From: an uncultured Candidatus Saccharibacteria bacterium
GTDB lineage: Bacteria > Patescibacteriota > UBA1384 > XYA2-FULL-43-10
Assembly: GCA_964389035.1 (NCBI GenBank)
Contig: CAYMCH010000001.1
Location: forward strand, 1-52,035
DNA length: 52,035 nt
Direction of reading: 5' to 3'
The position numbers were made by a program, and so were the translations under genes. Of the stretch, positions 21,004 to 25,212 are shown piece by piece (the stretch's first letter is position 1; every line of letters starts with the position of its first letter). Under the pieces are notes generated by a model. The model was not told the DNA's origin. It worked only from the letters and a program-made list of their open reading frames with translations, and made no database searches.

Positions 21004-21573
21004 TAGATCTGATCGATAACATTCCATTGCTACTCAATGGTAACTCAGTGTTTTTCCGATGATAAAAATGTGAGGCGGTAAACAGTAAAAAAATAAATGA
21101 TAAAGATAAAACGCGGTAGAATACAGGATTCTGCTATTAGTTTCTATTATTGTAATGTTGGTTATTGAATATTGATCATTGGATATTTAATTGATATTTT
21201 ATATCTTGCTAACCGCTAACGCTGTGACGGGATACGGGATCAAATCCGGAATGACAAAGTGATTTGATATTTGTAATTTCATTAAGAATTATAAATTTGG
21301 ATTTTGAAATTTATTCCGCCTACCTACCTGCAAGCCTGTAGTTTCTTCCTATTTCTGCACCCATTCCGTGTTTTTCTGTATTGTTACTTTCTAACTTTAT
21401 AAACTTTCTATCTTCCCCTTTACCGTTTTATTTATCACCTAACACCTGAAACCTAAAACCTGTATTCTAAATACTTAATTCATAATTCTTTATTTACTTC
21501 CTGCCATACATTTACCATCATACATTTTGCTTTTTGCTTTTTTCCTATTACATTTATCTTAATAACTTTTTGT

Positions 21574-21650
21574 CGGGGTGTAGCACAGTTGGCTAGTGCG
21601 CATGGCTGGGGGTCATGAGGCCGCCGGTTCAAGTCCGGCCACCCCGACCA
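21574..21650 (+). tRNA. tRNA-Pro (anticodon GGG), CCA encoded
   Basis: Acceptor CGGGGTG/CACCCCG, anticodon arm CATGG-CTGGGGG-TCATG, T-arm GCCGGTTCAAGTCCGGC, ending ACCA. Confidence 0.92.
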
Positions 21651-21661
21651 TTGAAAACTTT

Positions 21662-21700
21662 GTCGAATTTACTCAACGAAGCGCGAACTTTTTTCGAACA
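21662..21700. repeat. Left terminal inverted repeat of the island
   Basis: The reverse complement tgttcgaaaaaagttcgcgcttcgttgagtaaattcgac matches 25068-25106 at 34/39 positions. Confidence 0.8.
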
Positions 21701-21838
21701 GAATTCAAAGTAATTTTATACTTGCAAATTTCACTCTGAATTTCCAGAGCAATATTCCAATGTTCCTCCTCGCTTCGCTCGGCGTGTTTTTGTGCGGTCG
21801 CTGGAGGGGTGTGGGGAGGAAACGACCGCACGAGTTTT

Positions 21839-22117
21839 GAAAAACGGGTATAGAATTCGGTAAATCGCGTGGTGGAGGAGCCGATCCCGAACACTCGCCT
21901 TATGGATATCTCGAACTTTTGGGTCACTAATTTTGAACGATTGATATCTGCCGTGCCGGTATGATTTATCGGCAAGTTCGGCATGTAGCACAAGAATATT
22001 GTCCATAAAATTAAGTGAAAATTTAGCTACATCTTTTCGCTTCCTCTTGCCTTTTAAGAATTCGCGCCATGAAATAAGTAAATTATCAACCGATATGATA
22101 TTATTGAAAATATGATG
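21839..22117 (-). pseudogene. Reverse transcriptase remnant (DGR-type), N-terminal ~94 codons only, no canonical start codon
   Basis: A single open frame reads HHIFNNIISVDNLLISWREFLKGKRKRKDVAKFSLNFMDNILVLHAELADKSYRHGRYQSFKISDPKVRDIHKASVRDRLLHHAIYRILYPFF. This follows the N-terminal/finger pattern of Brt-like DGR RTs (..NL..A....GKR......F......L...L....Y....Y..F.I.(D/E)PK.R.I......DR..HHA.....P.F). Similarity stops at ~21839. No palm or YxDD region appears in any frame. Confidence 0.7.
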
Positions 22118-22125
22118 CAGCCCAA

Positions 22126-22156
<31 letters not shown>

Positions 22157-22196
22157 GAGTTGCCCCTCGATCCTTTGCCGAATAAAAGAGGGATAT

Positions 22197-22553
22197 TTGA
22201 TTTGGATTAATTTTGTTCCTCATATCGCTAGAAGTTCTCGATATACCATTGGTCAGCGAATTGAAAATAAGTTTTTAGATTTACTGGAATTATCATACAT
22301 AACCTATTTTAACGATAAAGATAAAAAGAAAGAAAAAATCTCTGAGTGTGTCTTGACCTTGGAGACACTCAAATTCATTGTTTCCATTGCATGGGAAGGC
22401 AAGATCATACCTAATAACAAGTATGAAGAATTGGCGAGAAAACTCGATGAAGCAGGTAAAATGTACGGTGGCTGGAAGAAAAATTTTGATAATCCGCAAA
22501 AAAAACCGCTCATTGTAGCACGGAAAAGAAATACTTTCGAAGACGGAACATAA
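22197..22553 (+). CDS. avd: Avd-like four-helix-bundle protein (DGR accessory variability determinant / S23-IVS family), TTG start, possibly N-terminally truncated
   Basis: ...VPHIARSSRYTIGQRIENKFLDLLELSYITYF...LETLKFIVSIAWEGKIIPNNKYEELARKLDEAGKMYGGWKKN parallels Bordetella phage bAvd (..SIPRKHG.AREMFLKCLLGQVELFIVA...RILGSWIAR). GAGGG lies 6 nt before the TTG. The frame stays open upstream to 22116 (..SILCRIKEGY..) but has no in-frame ATG. Confidence 0.7.
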   Translation: MIWINFVPHIARSSRYTIGQRIENKFLDLLELSYITYFNDKDKKKEKISECVLTLETLKFIVSIAWEGKIIPNNKYEELARKLDEAGKMYGGWKKNFDNPQKKPLIVARKRNTFEDGT

Positions 22554-22669
22554 ACTCATTGTCAGCATTCCACTTGTTGTCAGGCTTAGCCCATTTGTTG
22601 TTGAGCCACAAGCCATCGTCGTTGTGTTCCATGTTGAAGACGTTAGGGTTGCCGTTCCGGTCTGTAATT
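22538..22669 (-). repeat. DGR template repeat (TR)
   Basis: 132-nt copy that carries A (minus strand) at 19 of the 24 positions differing from the copy inside the target ORF. Non-coding. Its 3' end overlaps the 3' end of the Avd-like gene on the opposite strand. Confidence 0.78.
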
Positions 22670-22993
22670 GTGTGATCCTCCACCTATACCACTGCCCTCG
22701 CAATCTATCGGTAAAAGGCGCCGAGCTGTATTTTATTTGGGATCGAAAATCCCCGAGCATTTCACACCAAGTTTGTCTTTTTATGTAGACAAAATACGAA
22801 CCCTCTTTTGGAAGTCGTGACCGTCAGTATTCTCAATTCATGTTCACCGGAGAGGTTTCGCCAAGCCGTAGCCGGGCAATTCAATCTCTCTGTATTTAGT
22901 ATATCAAAAATTTGTATCGTGCGGCTTCGCCGCATAAGTATCAAAGTATCTAAAACTTAAAGCTTTAAAAGTAAACAAAAAGAGATCAAAAAT

Positions 22994-24421
22994 CTAAGTT
23001 GCCTGAGAAACTTGGCGAAGACGGAACATAAACTCGCTGCCAGCATTCCACTTGCGGTCAGGCTCAGCCCACCCTTCTTTGAGCCACAAGCAATCGCCGT
23101 AGTGTTCCAGGTCGAAGACGTAATGGACGCCGCGCCGGTCTGCAATTTGCTTCATAGCAATTGTATAACAATCATCCAGAGGTTGTTCTTGATCTTTTGA
23201 TCTTTGATACGGTCCAACTACAGCCGGACAGAGTTCAAGCCCAAATTCTTCTGCTTTGGCATAAATTTGATCTGTCGTAGCACCGTCCAGAAAACCCAAA
23301 TCTTGAACTTTTAGCCGTATGGTATTAATTTGTTCAGGATTTGGTTGAGTTGTATATTCAACCCTGTCCAGCATATCTTGAGCATAGTCGTAAATTTTTA
23401 TTCCTTTTGCCTTTAATTCAGCAACCAGTTCATCCTTAGTTTTGCTACCGATCTCAAGTTCGCTCTTTCGGATTCTGCCTTCGGGGAAAGAAGTGTAAAT
23501 ATTTTCGAGATTTGGCATCTGAAATATGCCGGCAAAAAGCGGGCCGATGTAATTTTTTGTCTGTTTATGGATCTGATCTTGATTCCATGCAATTTCATTT
23601 GGCTGGCAATCCAGGACGATTGGAGCGTCTGCTTTCGGGTCCCTTTGGGAGCGAACTTCAGCAACTCGCGAATCTCTGTCGTAGTCAAAACCCTCAATCT
23701 GCGAGTTTATTTCATATAGAAAAATAAGTTCGTCTTTAGAAAGATCATCTCCTGCCTGATGTTTCTTGTAGACCAAAGTCATTTGTTTCATATCGGCAGC
23801 TTTCTTGTCGTATTTTTCGCCGCCCGGAAAAGCGTGATATTCCTGCTGGGCAATGTCAACTAACTCCGGCTCAAGCTCCTGTCTTTGATTTACGCCGCGA
23901 ATTTCACCTACTTGGTCGCCTTCCATTCTGATTGCAACTCTCGGCTCAGTGTACTGGCCGTCAGCATTTTTTGTGTAATAGACATAGAAGTCGCCACCCT
24001 GCAGATGGCCTTCGGCGCTTCCCTCGGCCGTGCACCAGCCGGTACCCTTTCCCTTAAGATCGCCCTCTAGCTTTCGCCAGTCGCCGCCCTGATCGTACTT
24101 TCGCCACTCCCCCTCAATACTCTCGCGATTCAGTTTGCCAGCGGTTTCGACTTGGGCAAAGGCGTACAAACCAGCGAAATCTTTTGATTTTAATAATCTA
24201 TCTAGATGCTCTTGCTTTTCGCTTGCTTGCGGATCATTTTGATCAATCGTTTGTTCCTGATCTTCGCCGGATAGTCGTTTGTATACCCAGCCGAGAGCTT
24301 CAGAATTAAGCTCAGGAAAGGGCGCAATTGTTTTTGGTGTTCGCTTGGAGTAGGTTAGTTTTTCCTTATCCAGCGTTCCCATTTTCCGCAAGTTACGAAC
24401 AACAAAATATCGAAACCACAT
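22994..24421 (-). CDS. DGR target protein, main (C-terminal) part; the variable region encodes the last ~45 residues
   Basis: 475-aa ORF in the track. The frame is open upstream to 24622 and overlaps the 24555..24875 ORF. The C-terminus ...IADRRGVHYVFDLEHYGDCLWLKEGWAEPDRKWNAGSEFMFRLRQVSQAT contains the VR. Confidence 0.8.
   Translation of the reverse strand: MWFRYFVVRNLRKMGTLDKEKLTYSKRTPKTIAPFPELNSEALGWVYKRLSGEDQEQTIDQNDPQASEKQEHLDRLLKSKDFAGLYAFAQVETAGKLNRESIEGEWRKYDQGGDWRKLEGDLKGKGTGWCTAEGSAEGHLQGGDFYVYYTKNADGQYTEPRVAIRMEGDQVGEIRGVNQRQELEPELVDIAQQEYHAFPGGEKYDKKAADMKQMTLVYKKHQAGDDLSKDELIFLYEINSQIEGFDYDRDSRVAEVRSQRDPKADAPIVLDCQPNEIAWNQDQIHKQTKNYIGPLFAGIFQMPNLENIYTSFPEGRIRKSELEIGSKTKDELVAELKAKGIKIYDYAQDMLDRVEYTTQPNPEQINTIRLKVQDLGFLDGATTDQIYAKAEEFGLELCPAVVGPYQRSKDQEQPLDDCYTIAMKQIADRRGVHYVFDLEHYGDCLWLKEGWAEPDRKWNAGSEFMFRLRQVSQAT
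23016..23147 (-). repeat. DGR variable repeat (VR)
   Basis: 132 nt, 108/132 identical to 22538-22669, ungapped. It ends 20 nt before the stop codon of the target ORF. Confidence 0.78.
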
Positions 24422-24554
24422 CGGCTGTTTGGCATCATTTTCGCCAAGGTAGTCGAGCCATGATTGCAGTGTCTTTCTTTGTTGTTCGGCTTTTTCTTCG
24501 ATTAAATTTTTGTATTTGTCGATAACTTCTTCATTAAATTCCAGACGTTCAATA

Positions 24555-24875
24555 TCACCACCTCGTCCTTGTTCGATCGCAAGCTTTTTTTTCTGATTCG
24601 TAAAGTCCTTGAGCCAGAGCTGTCAAAGTTTCTTCGTCTTTAGAGTCAATCGTAAATTCATCCAGAATTTTATGACTTAAACGCTCAAGACCTCGTTCAT
24701 CTGAGGATATTTTTTCGAGGCGACCCATGTATGCCCCAACACGCTCTTCGCGAGTTCTGATTTTTTCGCCCCCACTTCTGGCTTTAATCGAGGCCCTTTC
24801 TACTTCATGAGAGCCTGAAAGATCGACATATTTTTCTGCCAAGAATTCTGGTCCTGGACCGCTTCCTACTGGCAT
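24555..24875 (-). CDS. N-terminal fragment of the DGR target gene, separated from the rest by a 1-nt frameshift at an A8 run
   Basis: Good RBS (AAGGAGCAAGT-ATG). The ORF ends 30 nt after an A8 tract (24585-24592). The downstream ORF's frame is already open across that tract. Confidence 0.6.
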   Translation of the reverse strand: MPVGSGPGPEFLAEKYVDLSGSHEVERASIKARSGGEKIRTREERVGAYMGRLEKISSDERGLERLSHKILDEFTIDSKDEETLTALAQGLYESEKKACDRTRTRW

Positions 24876-24910
24876 ACTTGCTCCTTTTTTTAGCTTAAAC
24901 TTCTGATTTC

Positions 24911-24939
24911 ATTATTGATCAATTATTCAAATTTTTCAA
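24911..24939 (-). promoter_or_regulatory. Putative sigma70-type promoter of the target gene
   Basis: On the minus strand: TTGAAA (24939-24934), 17 nt, AATAAT (24916-24911). This lies ~35 nt upstream of the ATG at 24875. Confidence 0.35.
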
Positions 24940-25067
24940 CCTTTTTCTTCTCATATTAGAAATTCGCCAAGCAATCACAGCGAGCGAAGGCGGAAGTATT
25001 TAGCATATACTCTAGAAATTTAAGGAGAAATACGCTATTATGTATTTGTTATTTGCTTTCGGAGTTT

Positions 25068-25106
25068 TGTTCGAAATAAGTTCGAACTTCGTTCAGCAAA
25101 TTCGAC
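25068..25106. repeat. Right terminal inverted repeat of the island
   Basis: tgttcgaaataagttcgaacttcgttcagcaaattcgac is the inverted partner of 21662-21700. Confidence 0.8.
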
Positions 25107-25212
25107 CATCAAAATATTAATGCCTTGAATCACATATTTTTAATGTTCGTGGCGATTGTTATATGATCAAAAAATATTAAACAATTTTAATAATTTGATT
25201 AAAGGAGGAAAC

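What the first reader, a model, noticed from the sequence alone, without database searches (positions are those of the whole stretch)
22538..23147. Adenine-specific mismatch pattern between two 132-nt repeats: a DGR template/variable repeat pair
The copies 22538-22669 and 23016-23147 have the same orientation and align without gaps, with 24 mismatches. I read them on the minus strand, which is the coding strand of ORF 22994..24421. At 19 of the 24 mismatches the first copy has A and the ORF copy has C, G or T. The first copy contains 42 A, so 45% of its A positions differ, against 5 of 90 non-A positions. In the ORF frame the first copy reads RNGNPNVFNMEHNDDGLWLNNKWAKPDNKWNADNEFMFRL, which is rich in AAC (Asn) codons. 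The ORF copy reads RRGVHYVFDLEHYGDCLWLKEGWAEPDRKWNAGSEFMFRL. The 3'-terminal ~20 nt (GAGTTTATGTTCCGTCTTCG) are identical in both, like an IMH-type invariant end. A GC hairpin GCGGC-ttc-GCCGC (22921-22933) lies ~83 nt downstream of the VR. Adenine-directed TR-to-VR mutagenesis is the defining signature of diversity-generating retroelements. An Avd-like gene and a DGR-type RT N-terminus lie next to the repeats.
Basis: partly seen in the sequence, partly recalled or inferred. Interest (0 to 1): 0.85.

Follow-up and report, generated by a model that had tools for sequence, protein, structure and literature searches.

The report
Decayed DGR remnant in a Patescibacteria genome
The two 132-nt repeats are a genuine template/variable repeat pair of a diversity-generating retroelement, but its reverse transcriptase has lost about 750 bp, so this is a frozen relic of past hypermutation and not a working diversifier.

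Summary
Copies 22538-22669 and 23016-23147 align without gaps and have 24 mismatches. Nineteen fall on the 42 adenines of the first copy and 5 on its 90 other bases (Fisher p=1.5e-7). Eighteen of the 19 are at codon positions 1-2 of the target ORF.

The cassette belongs to a large DGR lineage found only in Patescibacteria (CPR). Its order is target-VR, GC hairpin, TR, avd on the opposite strand, a (GA)n tract, then RT. Here the element is broken:
- A clean deletion of about 746 bp leaves only the first ~96 residues of the RT.
- The target gene is split by a +1 frameshift in an A8 run.
- The share of non-adenine mismatches (5 of 24) is the highest among 31 relatives.
- Two independent public assemblies carry the same lesions and an identical VR, while SNPs have accumulated in the TR and elsewhere.

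Of 62 related loci with enough flank, 29 have a full RT, 10 have remnants and 23 have nothing.

Verdict: a new, degenerate member of a known kind. The identification is right, but there is no evidence of present activity. The more interesting side observation is a hypermutable (GA)n or poly-G tract conserved just upstream of the RT across this lineage.

The parts
24555..24875 (-). 5' fragment of the DGR target gene (106-aa ORF). It aligns to the N-terminus of the 610-650-aa homologues, then leaves the frame.
   Evidence: The same 106-aa product is found in an independent Logan contig, L085.
24585..24592 (-). A8 homopolymer carrying a +1 frameshift that splits the target gene. A7 would restore ...YESEKKLAIEQGRGG...
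   Evidence: Relatives have interrupted A runs at this site. The frameshift is present in L085.
22994..24421 (-). Main ORF of the target gene (475 aa). It belongs to a Patescibacteria-wide family of unknown function with no Pfam domain. The reading frame is open upstream to the frameshift site.
   Evidence: AF2 model pLDDT 87.
23016..23147 (-). Variable repeat (VR). It encodes the last ~43 residues before the C-terminal tail RQVSQAT.
   Evidence: These columns are hypervariable across the whole family. The VR is identical in L084 and L085.
22920..22934 (-). GC hairpin TGCGGC-gaa-GCCGCA, starting 82 nt downstream of the VR and followed by a T-rich run.
   Evidence: It is conserved in position, with compensatory stem changes, in L023, L038, L027 and L020. 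Compare the VR-flanking hairpin of the BPP-1 DGR (PMC3240598).
22538..22669 (-). Template repeat (TR): 42 A, 8 AAC and 2 AAT codons. Its 3' end overlaps the 3' end of avd in antisense.
22498..22523 (-). Weakened copy of the hairpin plus U-run that follows the TR in relatives (AAAGTATTTCTTTTCC-hairpin-TTTTT).
   Evidence: In relatives z is about -2 to -2.5 for five of seven folded (L019 -0.7, L063 -0.5); in the window z is +0.58.
22197..22553 (+). avd accessory gene (118 aa, TTG start), apparently intact, on the strand opposite to TR, VR and RT. This orientation is normal for the lineage.
   Evidence: Pfam PF22296 55.7 bits against a cut-off of 40. NCBIfam DivGenRetAVD 59 bits, below its cut-off of 80. 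Same orientation in more than 30 relatives.
22128..22156 (-). (GA)14.5 / (CT)14.5 microsatellite in the ~70-nt gap between the divergent avd and RT genes.
   Evidence: It is conserved as (GA)n or poly-G at this position in 24 of 31 related loci with an RT anchor. It is 4 units shorter in L084.
21841..22126 (-). Remnant of the DGR reverse transcriptase: the N-terminal ~96 residues only, ending ...HHAIYRILYPFF. There is no catalytic domain. The frame then runs through unrelated sequence to a stop at 21731-21733.
   Evidence: No Pfam or NCBIfam RT hit. No other RT-like sequence in the window.
21662..21841 (.). RT-side arm of the inverted repeat that brackets the cassette. The RT deletion junction lies at its inner edge (~21841). 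It contains the hairpin GTGCGGTCG-22 nt-CGACCGCAC.
24927..25108 (.). Target-side arm of the inverted repeat. It includes a promoter-like site (24939-24911, minus strand) upstream of the target gene.
21574..21650 (+). tRNA-Pro(GGG) abutting the cassette. It marks one boundary of the 44%-GC island.

Best explanation
This is a chromosomal DGR cassette of the Patescibacteria-specific DGR lineage that worked in the past and is now defunct.

In intact relatives the order is: target gene with a C-terminal VR, a GC hairpin, the TR with a terminator-like hairpin after it, avd on the opposite strand, a (GA)n or poly-G tract, then a 330-390-aa DGR-type RT.

The inferred mechanism follows established DGR biology. 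TR RNA is copied by the RT-Avd complex, which misincorporates opposite template adenines. The cDNA then replaces the VR up to the shared 3' boundary ...TTCCGTCTTCG. This recodes about 19 codon positions of a ligand-binding C-terminal domain.

In this genome a ~746-bp deletion removed everything after RT residue ~96, and a +1 slip in an A run split the target gene. The VR has been frozen since then. Ordinary GC-to-AT drift is now accumulating in both VR and TR.

Shown here: the repeat statistics, the architecture, the deletion, the frameshift, and the invariant VR across assemblies. Inferred: the cDNA mechanism itself and the order of the decay events.
For: - A-specific mismatches: 19/42 A against 5/90 non-A, p=1.5e-7, with 18 of 19 at codon positions 1-2.
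- Same geometry in 30 related loci, where 83-100% of mismatches (mostly 90-100%) fall on TR adenines.
- Avd is recognised by Pfam. The RT stub is 86% identical to the N-terminus of the L023 RT.
- The full-length L023 RT best matches the 328-aa chain 8ub7_A (E 7e-42, colinear) and carries LGNLTSQ and YADD motifs.
- Deletion: window 23830-21840 matches L023 1423-3477. Window 21841-21790 then matches L023 4224-4274, just past the RT stop. No other RT is present in the 52-kb contig.
- Frameshift: homologues are 610-650 aa and align across both ORFs. A8 sits where A7 would be in frame.
- Independent assemblies: L084 (SRR29243433) has the same RT deletion and a 100% identical VR. It differs by 1 SNP in the TR, 1 SNP elsewhere in the target gene, and a 4-unit microsatellite change. 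L085 (SRR8925826) is 100% identical over 2324 nt, including the frameshift and the VR.
- Non-A mismatches: 5 of 24 is the largest share in the set. A published survey gives a median of 0 and a maximum of 3 (PMC11661182). Four of the five are derived in the VR and all four are GC>AT.
- The post-TR hairpin is weakened.
- Remnants are common in this family: 29 loci with a full RT, 10 with remnants, 23 with nothing.
Against: - Avd, TR and the VR-flanking hairpin look intact, so an RT supplied in trans could still use them.
- The 475-aa ORF has no further lesions and keeps every residue that is invariant across the family. A shortened protein may therefore still be made and kept under selection.
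- The strain comparison uses consensus assemblies only. L085 may come from the same sample as the window. Minority VR variants would not be visible.
- The closest intact relatives, L019 and L023, also show 3-4 non-A differences. The excess here is therefore suggestive and not decisive.
Confidence: 0.8

Rival explanations
1. The cassette is still active. A second, intact DGR elsewhere in the same genome, outside this 52-kb contig, supplies the RT in trans. That RT uses the local TR, Avd and VR.
For: - Avd, TR, the shared 3' boundary and the hairpin are preserved.
- Some related genomes carry more than one cassette or cassette fragment on one contig, for example L071 and L077.
- About 10% of DGR-containing complete genomes carry several DGRs (PMC5758913).
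Against: - The VR is identical in three assemblies while the TR itself has acquired a SNP.
- The target gene is frameshifted.
- The post-TR hairpin is weakened.
- There are five non-A mismatches.
- No RT was found in the contig.
- The closest RT N-terminus listed from the 5.8-billion-protein collection is only 80% identical. That list held only proteins of 172 aa or fewer.
Confidence: 0.12
2. The RT truncation and the frameshift are assembly or sequencing artefacts, and the real locus is an intact DGR.
For: - Homopolymer length errors are common.
- DGR loci with repeats are prone to misassembly.
Against: - The same deletion junction appears in an independent Logan assembly from a different run, L084.
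- The same A8 frameshift appears in L085.
- The junction joins two sequences that are ~746 bp apart in L023, with only ~3-4 nt of microhomology. It does not lie at a repeat that would confuse an assembler.
Confidence: 0.04
3. The two copies are an ordinary diverged duplication, and the adenine bias is due to chance or to base composition.
For: The genome is AT-rich, and drift there is GC>AT biased.
Against: - Fisher p=1.5e-7.
- The changes are A>G, A>C and A>T, which is the opposite direction to AT-biased drift.
- An identical repeat geometry with 83-100% A-site mismatches (mostly 90-100%) occurs in 30 other loci next to Avd and RT.
Confidence: 0.01

Closest known systems
Bordetella phage BPP-1 DGR (mtd-VR, avd, TR, brt), the prototype
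   Same: - Adenine-specific TR-to-VR substitutions.
- A ~130-nt repeat (134 bp in BPP-1), with A-sites at codon positions 1-2 and in AAC codons.
- VR at the 3' end of the target ORF.
- An Avd accessory protein.
- An invariant 3' boundary shared by TR and VR.
- A GC-rich hairpin downstream of the VR (PMC3240598, PMC5758913).
- RTs of intact relatives best match the 328-aa PDB chain 8ub7_A. From memory and from its length, I take this chain to be bRT.
   Different: - avd lies after the TR and on the opposite strand, divergent from the RT.
- The hairpin has a 5-6-bp stem and a GNA triloop about 70-95 nt from the VR. BPP-1-type hairpins have 7-10-bp stems, GRNA tetraloops and lie 4-34 bp away (PMC3240598).
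- There is no G/C-only IMH block.
- The target is a chromosomal protein of unknown function, not a phage tail fibre.
- The C-type lectin fold is not confirmed.
- Here the RT is deleted.
Patescibacteria/CPR-restricted DGRs (DGR clade 2 of Roux et al. 2021, PMC8144416; first reported by Paul et al. 2017, which I could not read)
   Same: - All 1883 protein homologues and 385 genome loci with source names are from Patescibacteria.
- The cassette is cellular and chromosomal.
- The target lacks any recognisable transmembrane or conserved domain, as described for this clade (PMC8144416).
   Different: - This copy is a remnant without a functional RT.
- I did not place the RT stub in an RT phylogeny, so assignment to the clade rests on host, target type and close homology to intact relatives.
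Degenerate DGR cassettes (examples with non-A substitutions and frameshifts in Wu et al. 2018, PMC5758913)
   Same: A TR/VR pair keeps the adenine signature while other components carry lesions. Non-A substitutions and a frameshift are both present.
   Different: Here the decay can be dated relative to intact relatives: an exact deletion junction, the same lesions in independent assemblies, and a family-wide series of intact, remnant and absent states.
Simple-sequence-repeat contingency loci, for example repeat tracts in intergenic promoter or 5'-UTR regions of Haemophilus (PMC12721329, PMC2651432). This comparison concerns only the (GA)n tract noticed in passing.
   Same: - A hypermutable tract sits at a fixed position between two divergent genes and immediately upstream of one of them.
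- Its length is polymorphic between near-identical sequences.
   Different: No expression data exist. The tract could simply be a purine-rich ribosome-binding region. The host is an uncultivated CPR bacterium.

Membership tests
Diversity-generating retroelement (DGR) | Two near-identical repeats whose differences are concentrated at adenines of one copy (the TR). | tested here: met
   19 of 24 mismatches fall on TR adenines: 19/42 A against 5/90 non-A, p=1.5e-7.
Diversity-generating retroelement (DGR) | The VR lies within, usually at the 3' end of, a protein-coding target gene. Variable adenines fall at codon positions 1-2 (AAY codons). | tested here: met
   The VR ends 7 codons (6 full codons plus one base) before the stop of ORF 22994-24421. 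Eighteen of 19 sites are at codon positions 1-2. The TR has 8 AAC and 2 AAT codons.
Diversity-generating retroelement (DGR) | A DGR-clade reverse transcriptase with a complete catalytic domain, encoded in the cassette. | tested here: not met
   Only ~96 N-terminal residues remain, and ~746 bp are deleted relative to L023. There is no RT profile hit and no other RT in the window.
Diversity-generating retroelement (DGR) | An accessory protein (Avd or an HRDC type) next to the TR and RT. | tested here: met
   Pfam bAvd PF22296 scores 55.7 bits against a cut-off of 40. NCBIfam DivGenRetAVD scores 59 bits, below its cut-off of 80.
Diversity-generating retroelement (DGR) | An IMH / IMH* boundary at the 3' end of VR and TR, and a GC-rich inverted repeat downstream of the VR. 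| tested here: inconclusive
   - The shared invariant end ...TTCCGTCTTCG is followed by a lineage-wide TR-A / VR-C difference.
- The GC hairpin is present and conserved in close relatives.
- Its stem length, loop and distance differ from the characterised BPP-1 type (PMC3240598). Function was not tested.
Diversity-generating retroelement (DGR) | Ongoing diversification: the VR varies between strains or reads at TR-adenine positions. | tested here: not met
   The VR is identical in the window, L084 and L085, while a TR SNP, a non-VR SNP and a microsatellite indel are seen. Only consensus assemblies were available, not reads.
Diversity-generating retroelement (DGR) | The VR is displayed on a C-type lectin (or Ig-like) fold. 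| tested here: inconclusive
   The C-terminal domain model is confident (pLDDT 91.7). The best Foldseek matches are C-type lectin CRDs, but they are weak (E>=0.13, TM 0.36-0.44). No hit reaches E<=0.001 in PDB or BFVD.
CPR/Patescibacteria DGR lineage (clade 2 of PMC8144416) | Cellular DGRs restricted to Patescibacteria, whose targets lack recognisable domains. | tested here: met
   All homologous targets and cassettes with a source name are from Patescibacteria MAGs. The target has no Pfam domain. The flanks are housekeeping genes.
CPR/Patescibacteria DGR lineage (clade 2 of PMC8144416) | The RT groups phylogenetically within the clade. | not tested
   No reference RT tree was available. The only evidence is 65-86% identity of the 98-aa stub to the RTs of relatives.

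The most novel reading that the evidence does not exclude
In this CPR DGR lineage, a hypermutable simple-sequence tract sits in the ~70-nt gap between the divergent avd and RT genes, within about 10 nt (up to ~30) of the RT N-terminus. It is (GA)5-21 in most loci and poly-G8-14 in others. The tract may act as a slipped-strand on/off or rheostat switch for the mutagenic machinery. Hypermutation of the target would then itself be phase-variable.

The window shows the tract changing length between near-identical populations (14 against 10 units), although here the RT it would control is already dead.
Probability: 0.3. Interest if true: 0.6.

Novelty: new member of a known kind. Interest (0 to 1): 0.3.

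Why it matters
As a DGR, this locus adds little: DGRs are already known to be abundant in Patescibacteria.

Its value is as a well-documented snapshot of DGR decay. The template/variable pair still carries an unmistakable adenine signature, yet the reverse transcriptase is gone and the variable region is frozen. This is a caution for scans that call an active DGR from the TR/VR pattern alone.

The target family is very widespread: about 1900 homologues and 385 species-level genomes. It has no known function and occurs with intact DGRs, with remnants and with none. That makes it a good system for asking what CPR bacteria diversify, and why they so often stop.

If the conserved repeat tract upstream of the RT proves to be regulatory, it would be a new layer of control over targeted hypermutation.

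Tried and rejected
- **Exact-sequence look-ups of window proteins.** The 475-aa ORF and the M50 peptidase gave nothing. Only the Avd and the 106-aa ORF found contigs.
- **Profile searches of the target.** Pfam and NCBIfam gave only noise-level hits. A PDB sequence-profile search of the family found nothing.
- **Structure searches.** Foldseek of the full-length and C-terminal models against PDB and BFVD gave no significant match.
- **Avd against PDB by sequence.** No match.
- **Rfam.** Gathering and E-value thresholds over the cassette and the IR element found only tRNAs.
- **Second RT in the window.** tblastn with eight full-length related RTs found none.
- **Near-identical intact RT.** A search with the 98-aa stub listed only proteins of 172 aa or fewer, the best at 80% identity. 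This says little about whether an intact sibling exists.
- **Terminal inverted repeats as a general feature of these cassettes.** Rejected. Only the window and L023, of 22 cassettes tested, have them. Single copies of the IR element occur without any DGR. A scan of viral contigs was empty.
- **Pairing between the post-TR pyrimidine tract and the (GA)n or poly-G tract.** I saw no covariation between loci with (GA)n and loci with poly-G (by eye), so I dropped the idea.
- **(GA)n as part of an upstream-extended RT coding frame.** Tract lengths fall in all three classes modulo 3, and upstream start codons are inconsistent. This reading is unlikely.
- **Literature.** Paul et al. 2017 could not be retrieved.
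Full report
**1. The observation**

The window contains one long direct repeat in the region, 22538-22669 and 23016-23147: 132 nt, ungapped, 82% identical. Read on the minus strand there are 24 mismatches. In 19 of them the 22538-22669 copy has A and the other copy has G (13), C (3) or T (3).

The first copy has 42 A, so 45% of its adenines differ against 5 of its 90 other bases (odds ratio 14, one-sided Fisher p=1.5e-7). Eleven of the 19 sites are first codon positions of ORF 22994-24421, seven are second positions and one is a third position. In that frame the first copy holds 8 AAC and 2 AAT codons among 43. No third copy exists in the window.

**2. What surrounds it**

Reading the minus strand from 25.1 kb down to 21.6 kb, the region contains:
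- a 106-aa ORF (24555-24875);
- the 475-aa ORF with the VR at its 3' end;
- a GC hairpin (22920-22934);
- the TR;
- an Avd gene on the opposite strand (22197-22553, Pfam bAvd 55.7 bits against a cut-off of 40);
- a (GA)14.5 microsatellite (22128-22156);
- a 98-residue stretch that is clearly the N-terminus of a DGR-type reverse transcriptase (...NIISVDNLLISWREFLKGKRKRKDV...ISDPKVRDIHKASVRDRLLHHAIYRILYPFF);
- unrelated sequence, then tRNA-Pro.

This 3.4-kb segment has 44% G+C in a contig that averages about 32%. The contig otherwise carries housekeeping genes: ArgRS, DNA polymerase III delta', PSP1 and an M50 peptidase. The window is an entire unnamed 52,035-nt NCBI contig.

**3. Relatives**

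The 475-aa protein has 1883 homologues. Every one that carries a source name comes from Patescibacteria. Nearly all of those listed are 610-650 aa and have no Pfam domain. A scan of one genome per species found 385 loci.

The homologues align across both the 106-aa ORF and the 475-aa ORF. The two ORFs are therefore one gene split by a frameshift. The C-terminal ~40 residues are hypervariable at the same columns throughout the family (consensus IAMKQIADRxGxPxVFxLxRxxDGLWLxxxWAxPxxxWxxxxxFVFRLRK).

Thirty of the fetched loci have a VR at the gene's 3' end and a TR about 450-500 nt (820 nt in L038) downstream. Between 83% and 100% (mostly 90-100%) of their mismatches fall on TR adenines. In most of them the order is the same as here: target-VR, TR, avd on the opposite strand, then the RT diverging from avd by about 60-90 nt. 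The inverted avd is therefore normal for this lineage and is not a rearrangement.

Intact RTs in relatives are open frames of 330-410 aa with LGNLTSQ and YADD motifs. The L023 RT best matches the 328-aa PDB chain 8ub7_A (E 7e-42, colinear). This is far better than its matches to group II intron or retron RTs. From its length, and from memory, I take that chain to be the Bordetella phage bRT.

Roux et al. describe a DGR clade restricted to Patescibacteria whose targets lack recognisable domains (PMC8144416). This cassette fits that description.

**4. The element is broken**

Nucleotide comparison with the closest intact cassette, L023, shows colinearity from the target gene through TR and avd to RT codon ~96 (window 23830-21840 = L023 1423-3477, 76.5%). 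Window 21841-21790 then matches L023 4224-4274 at 92%, which is just beyond the RT stop codon. So ~746 bp, the whole catalytic part of the RT, are missing, with only about 3-4 nt of microhomology at the junction. The stub gives no RT profile hit. No other RT-like sequence exists in the 52 kb.

The target gene has A8 at 24585-24592 where A7 would be in frame. Relatives have interrupted A runs at this site.

The hairpin plus U-run that follows the TR in relatives folds significantly better than shuffles in five of the seven relatives tested (z about -2 to -2.5; L019 -0.7, L063 -0.5), and the stems covary. In the window it is no better than shuffled sequence (z +0.58).

Five non-adenine mismatches out of 24 is the largest share in the comparison set. 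A published survey reports a median of 0 and a maximum of 3 (PMC11661182). Aligning the TRs of ten relatives shows that four of the five are derived in the VR: C>A three times and G>T once. All four run GC to AT, the direction of drift expected in this AT-rich genome. The fifth position is polymorphic among TRs.

**5. A strain test**

Exact look-ups of window proteins found two short contigs from other sequencing runs.

L084 (SRR29243433, 2700 nt) matches window 21341-24048 at 99.6%. It has the same RT deletion and a VR identical at all 132 positions. It differs by:
- a 4-unit change in the microsatellite;
- one SNP inside the TR (22654);
- one SNP in the target gene outside the VR (23269).

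L085 (SRR8925826, 2324 nt) is 100% identical to window 24956-22633, including the A8 frameshift and the VR.

The lesions are therefore not assembly artefacts. The VR is the stable part, while the TR has begun to drift. These are consensus assemblies, and L085 may derive from the same sample as the window. Read-level data would be needed to exclude low-frequency variants.

**6. Decay is common in this family**

Among 62 related loci with enough downstream sequence, 29 have a full RT. Ten retain only fragments: for example, the last 59 RT residues in L005, residues 269-356 in L011, 214-361 in L072 and 38-215 in L057, or only a TR or an avd. Twenty-three have nothing recognisable. Some of the 23, such as L001, are among the closest homologues of the window protein. 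The window is one intermediate stage in this series.

**7. Mechanism**

Shown here: the adenine-specific repeat pair, the cassette architecture and its conservation, the RT deletion, the frameshift, and the invariant VR.

Inferred from established DGR biology (PMC3240598, PMC5758913):
- In the intact ancestor, TR RNA was reverse-transcribed by the RT-Avd complex with random incorporation opposite template A.
- The cDNA replaced the VR up to the shared boundary ...TTCCGTCTTCG.
- Directly after this boundary nearly all relatives have TR CGAAAG against VR CGCAAG. This fixed A/C difference behaves like an IMH*/IMH directional marker.

The GC hairpin downstream of the VR is real. As DNA its dG is -7.1 kcal/mol and its z-score is -3.7. 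Its position is conserved, with compensatory stem changes: GCGGC/GCCGC, GTGGC/GCCAC and CCGCC/GGCGG. It has a GNA triloop, which from my own knowledge forms unusually stable DNA mini-hairpins. It differs from the characterised BPP-1 type, which has 7-10-bp stems, GRNA tetraloops and lies 4-34 bp from the VR (PMC3240598).

Without an RT, none of this can operate now unless an RT acts in trans. I give that rival about 12%.

**8. The target protein**

AlphaFold models are confident: pLDDT 87 for the 475 aa and 91.7 for the C-terminal 171 aa. Foldseek finds nothing at E<=0.001 in PDB or BFVD. The best weak matches to the VR-bearing domain are C-type lectin CRDs (Mincle, E 0.13, TM 0.36-0.44). A family profile finds no PDB relative by sequence.

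This agrees with the published expectation that CPR targets carry unrecognised C-type lectin variants (PMC8144416), but I cannot confirm the fold. Function remains unknown. The conserved GKGTGWCTA and PRVAIRM motifs have no annotated counterpart in the libraries I searched.

**9. Side observations**

(a) *Repeat tract upstream of the RT.* The (GA)n tract is not an accident of this locus.
- In 907 kb of fetched sequence there are 30 tracts of (GA)>=5 or G>=8. Twenty-six of them lie within 40 nt upstream of a DGR RT N-terminus, in 24 of 31 loci with an RT anchor. Two more lie next to RT fragments or cut contigs.
- The tract length differs between the window and L084.
- A G8/G9 difference is the only indel in 902 nt of 93%-identical sequence between L063 and L066.
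- Many of these RTs also lack ATG, GTG or TTG at their conserved N-terminus.
- I found no paper linking DGRs to simple-sequence repeats.

(b) *Flanking inverted repeat.* The cassette is bracketed by an inverted repeat here (21662-21841 against 24927-25108; a 45-nt core at 84%). In L023 the repeat is 238 nt at 92%. The cassette is inverted relative to the tRNA-Pro flank between the two genomes. Other relatives lack the repeat, and single copies occur without a DGR. It looks like a pre-existing intergenic element that permits inversion, not a transposon end.

**10. Verdict**

The finding is real and correctly identified as a DGR TR/VR pair. It belongs to a known kind, CPR DGRs, and this copy is a decayed remnant. 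Interest is modest, at 0.3. The conserved repeat tract upstream of the RT is the lead most worth following.

Noticed in passing
window 22128-22156; also L008, L014, L017, L018, L019, L020, L023, L024, L027, L029, L038, L045, L053, L055, L060, L062, L070 with (GA)n; L009, L063, L066, L071, L077, L081 with poly-G: A simple-sequence tract sits in the short gap between the divergent avd and RT genes, usually within 10 nt (up to ~30) of the RT N-terminus. It is (GA)5-21 in most loci and G8-14 in others. Twenty-six of the 30 such tracts in 907 kb of fetched sequence are at this position. The length differs between the window and the 99.6%-identical L084 (14 against 10 units). G8 against G9 is the only indel between the 93%-identical L063 and L066. 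It may be a phase-variable control or a purine-rich ribosome-binding region. No description was found in the searchable literature.
   Followed up: partly
window 22100-22130; RT N-termini of L014, L017, L018, L020, L023, L027, L045, L055 and others: Many RT genes of this lineage have no ATG, GTG or TTG at their conserved N-terminus. Two or three codons before an invariant CAT, the codon is CTG (window, L023), TTG (L019, L008, L060, L066, L081), CTT, ATT, TTT or, rarely, ATG. The translation start is unresolved.
   Followed up: partly
window 21662-21841 and 24927-25108; L023 93-329 and 4197-4423: The whole cassette is bracketed by an inverted repeat: 238 nt at 92% in L023, and weaker in the window. 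It is flipped relative to the tRNA-Pro flank between the two genomes, as expected for inversion by recombination between the arms. The RT deletion ends inside the RT-side arm. Other relatives lack the repeat.
   Followed up: partly
window 21793-21832; L023 4234-4274 and 242-282; L086 ~720-945; L087, L089, L090: The repeat arm is a conserved intergenic element. It has a ~45-nt core and a hairpin (GTGCGGYCG, a 22-nt C-rich loop, CGRCCGCAC) showing a compensatory T-A to C-G change. It occurs as a single copy without any DGR in several metagenome contigs. There is no Rfam match, and its function is unknown.
   Followed up: partly
window ~21700-25100: The cassette is a compositional island: 44-45% G+C at 23-25 kb against about 30-33% in the flanks. 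It abuts tRNA-Pro, which suggests horizontal acquisition of the cassette alone.
   Followed up: no
L027 8350-8375, L036, L048, L077, L023, L019; window 22498-22523: Directly after the TR, relatives share AAAGTATTTCTTTTCC followed by a hairpin with covarying stems and a U-run, which looks like a terminator. This would place the TR on the target-gene transcript and separate it from the avd and RT transcripts. The window copy is weakened.
   Followed up: partly
3' ends of TR and VR in the window and about 20 relatives: Immediately after the shared ...CTTCG, the TR reads AAAG and the VR reads CAAG in nearly all relatives. This fixed A/C difference could mark directionality, as IMH* against IMH does.
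   Followed up: no
L077 7729-11459; L071 5128-5521 and 8426-8890: Some relatives carry duplicated cassette parts on one contig. L077 has two identical VR/TR pairs 3.1 kb apart. L071 has two avd copies and an RT N-terminal fragment. These may be real tandem duplications or assembly artefacts.
   Followed up: no
L024, L051, L053, L057, L058, L062, L071, L075: In these loci the avd-RT module lies in the opposite orientation relative to the target gene, and no TR was detected by my scan downstream of the VR. This may be an alternative architecture of the same lineage.
   Followed up: no
target family: L001-L083, P0001-P0120: The same ~630-aa protein family, with a C-terminus that is hypervariable between species, occurs with a full DGR (29 loci), with remnants (10) or with no DGR nearby (23). 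This suggests repeated loss of the diversifier while the target is retained.
   Followed up: partly
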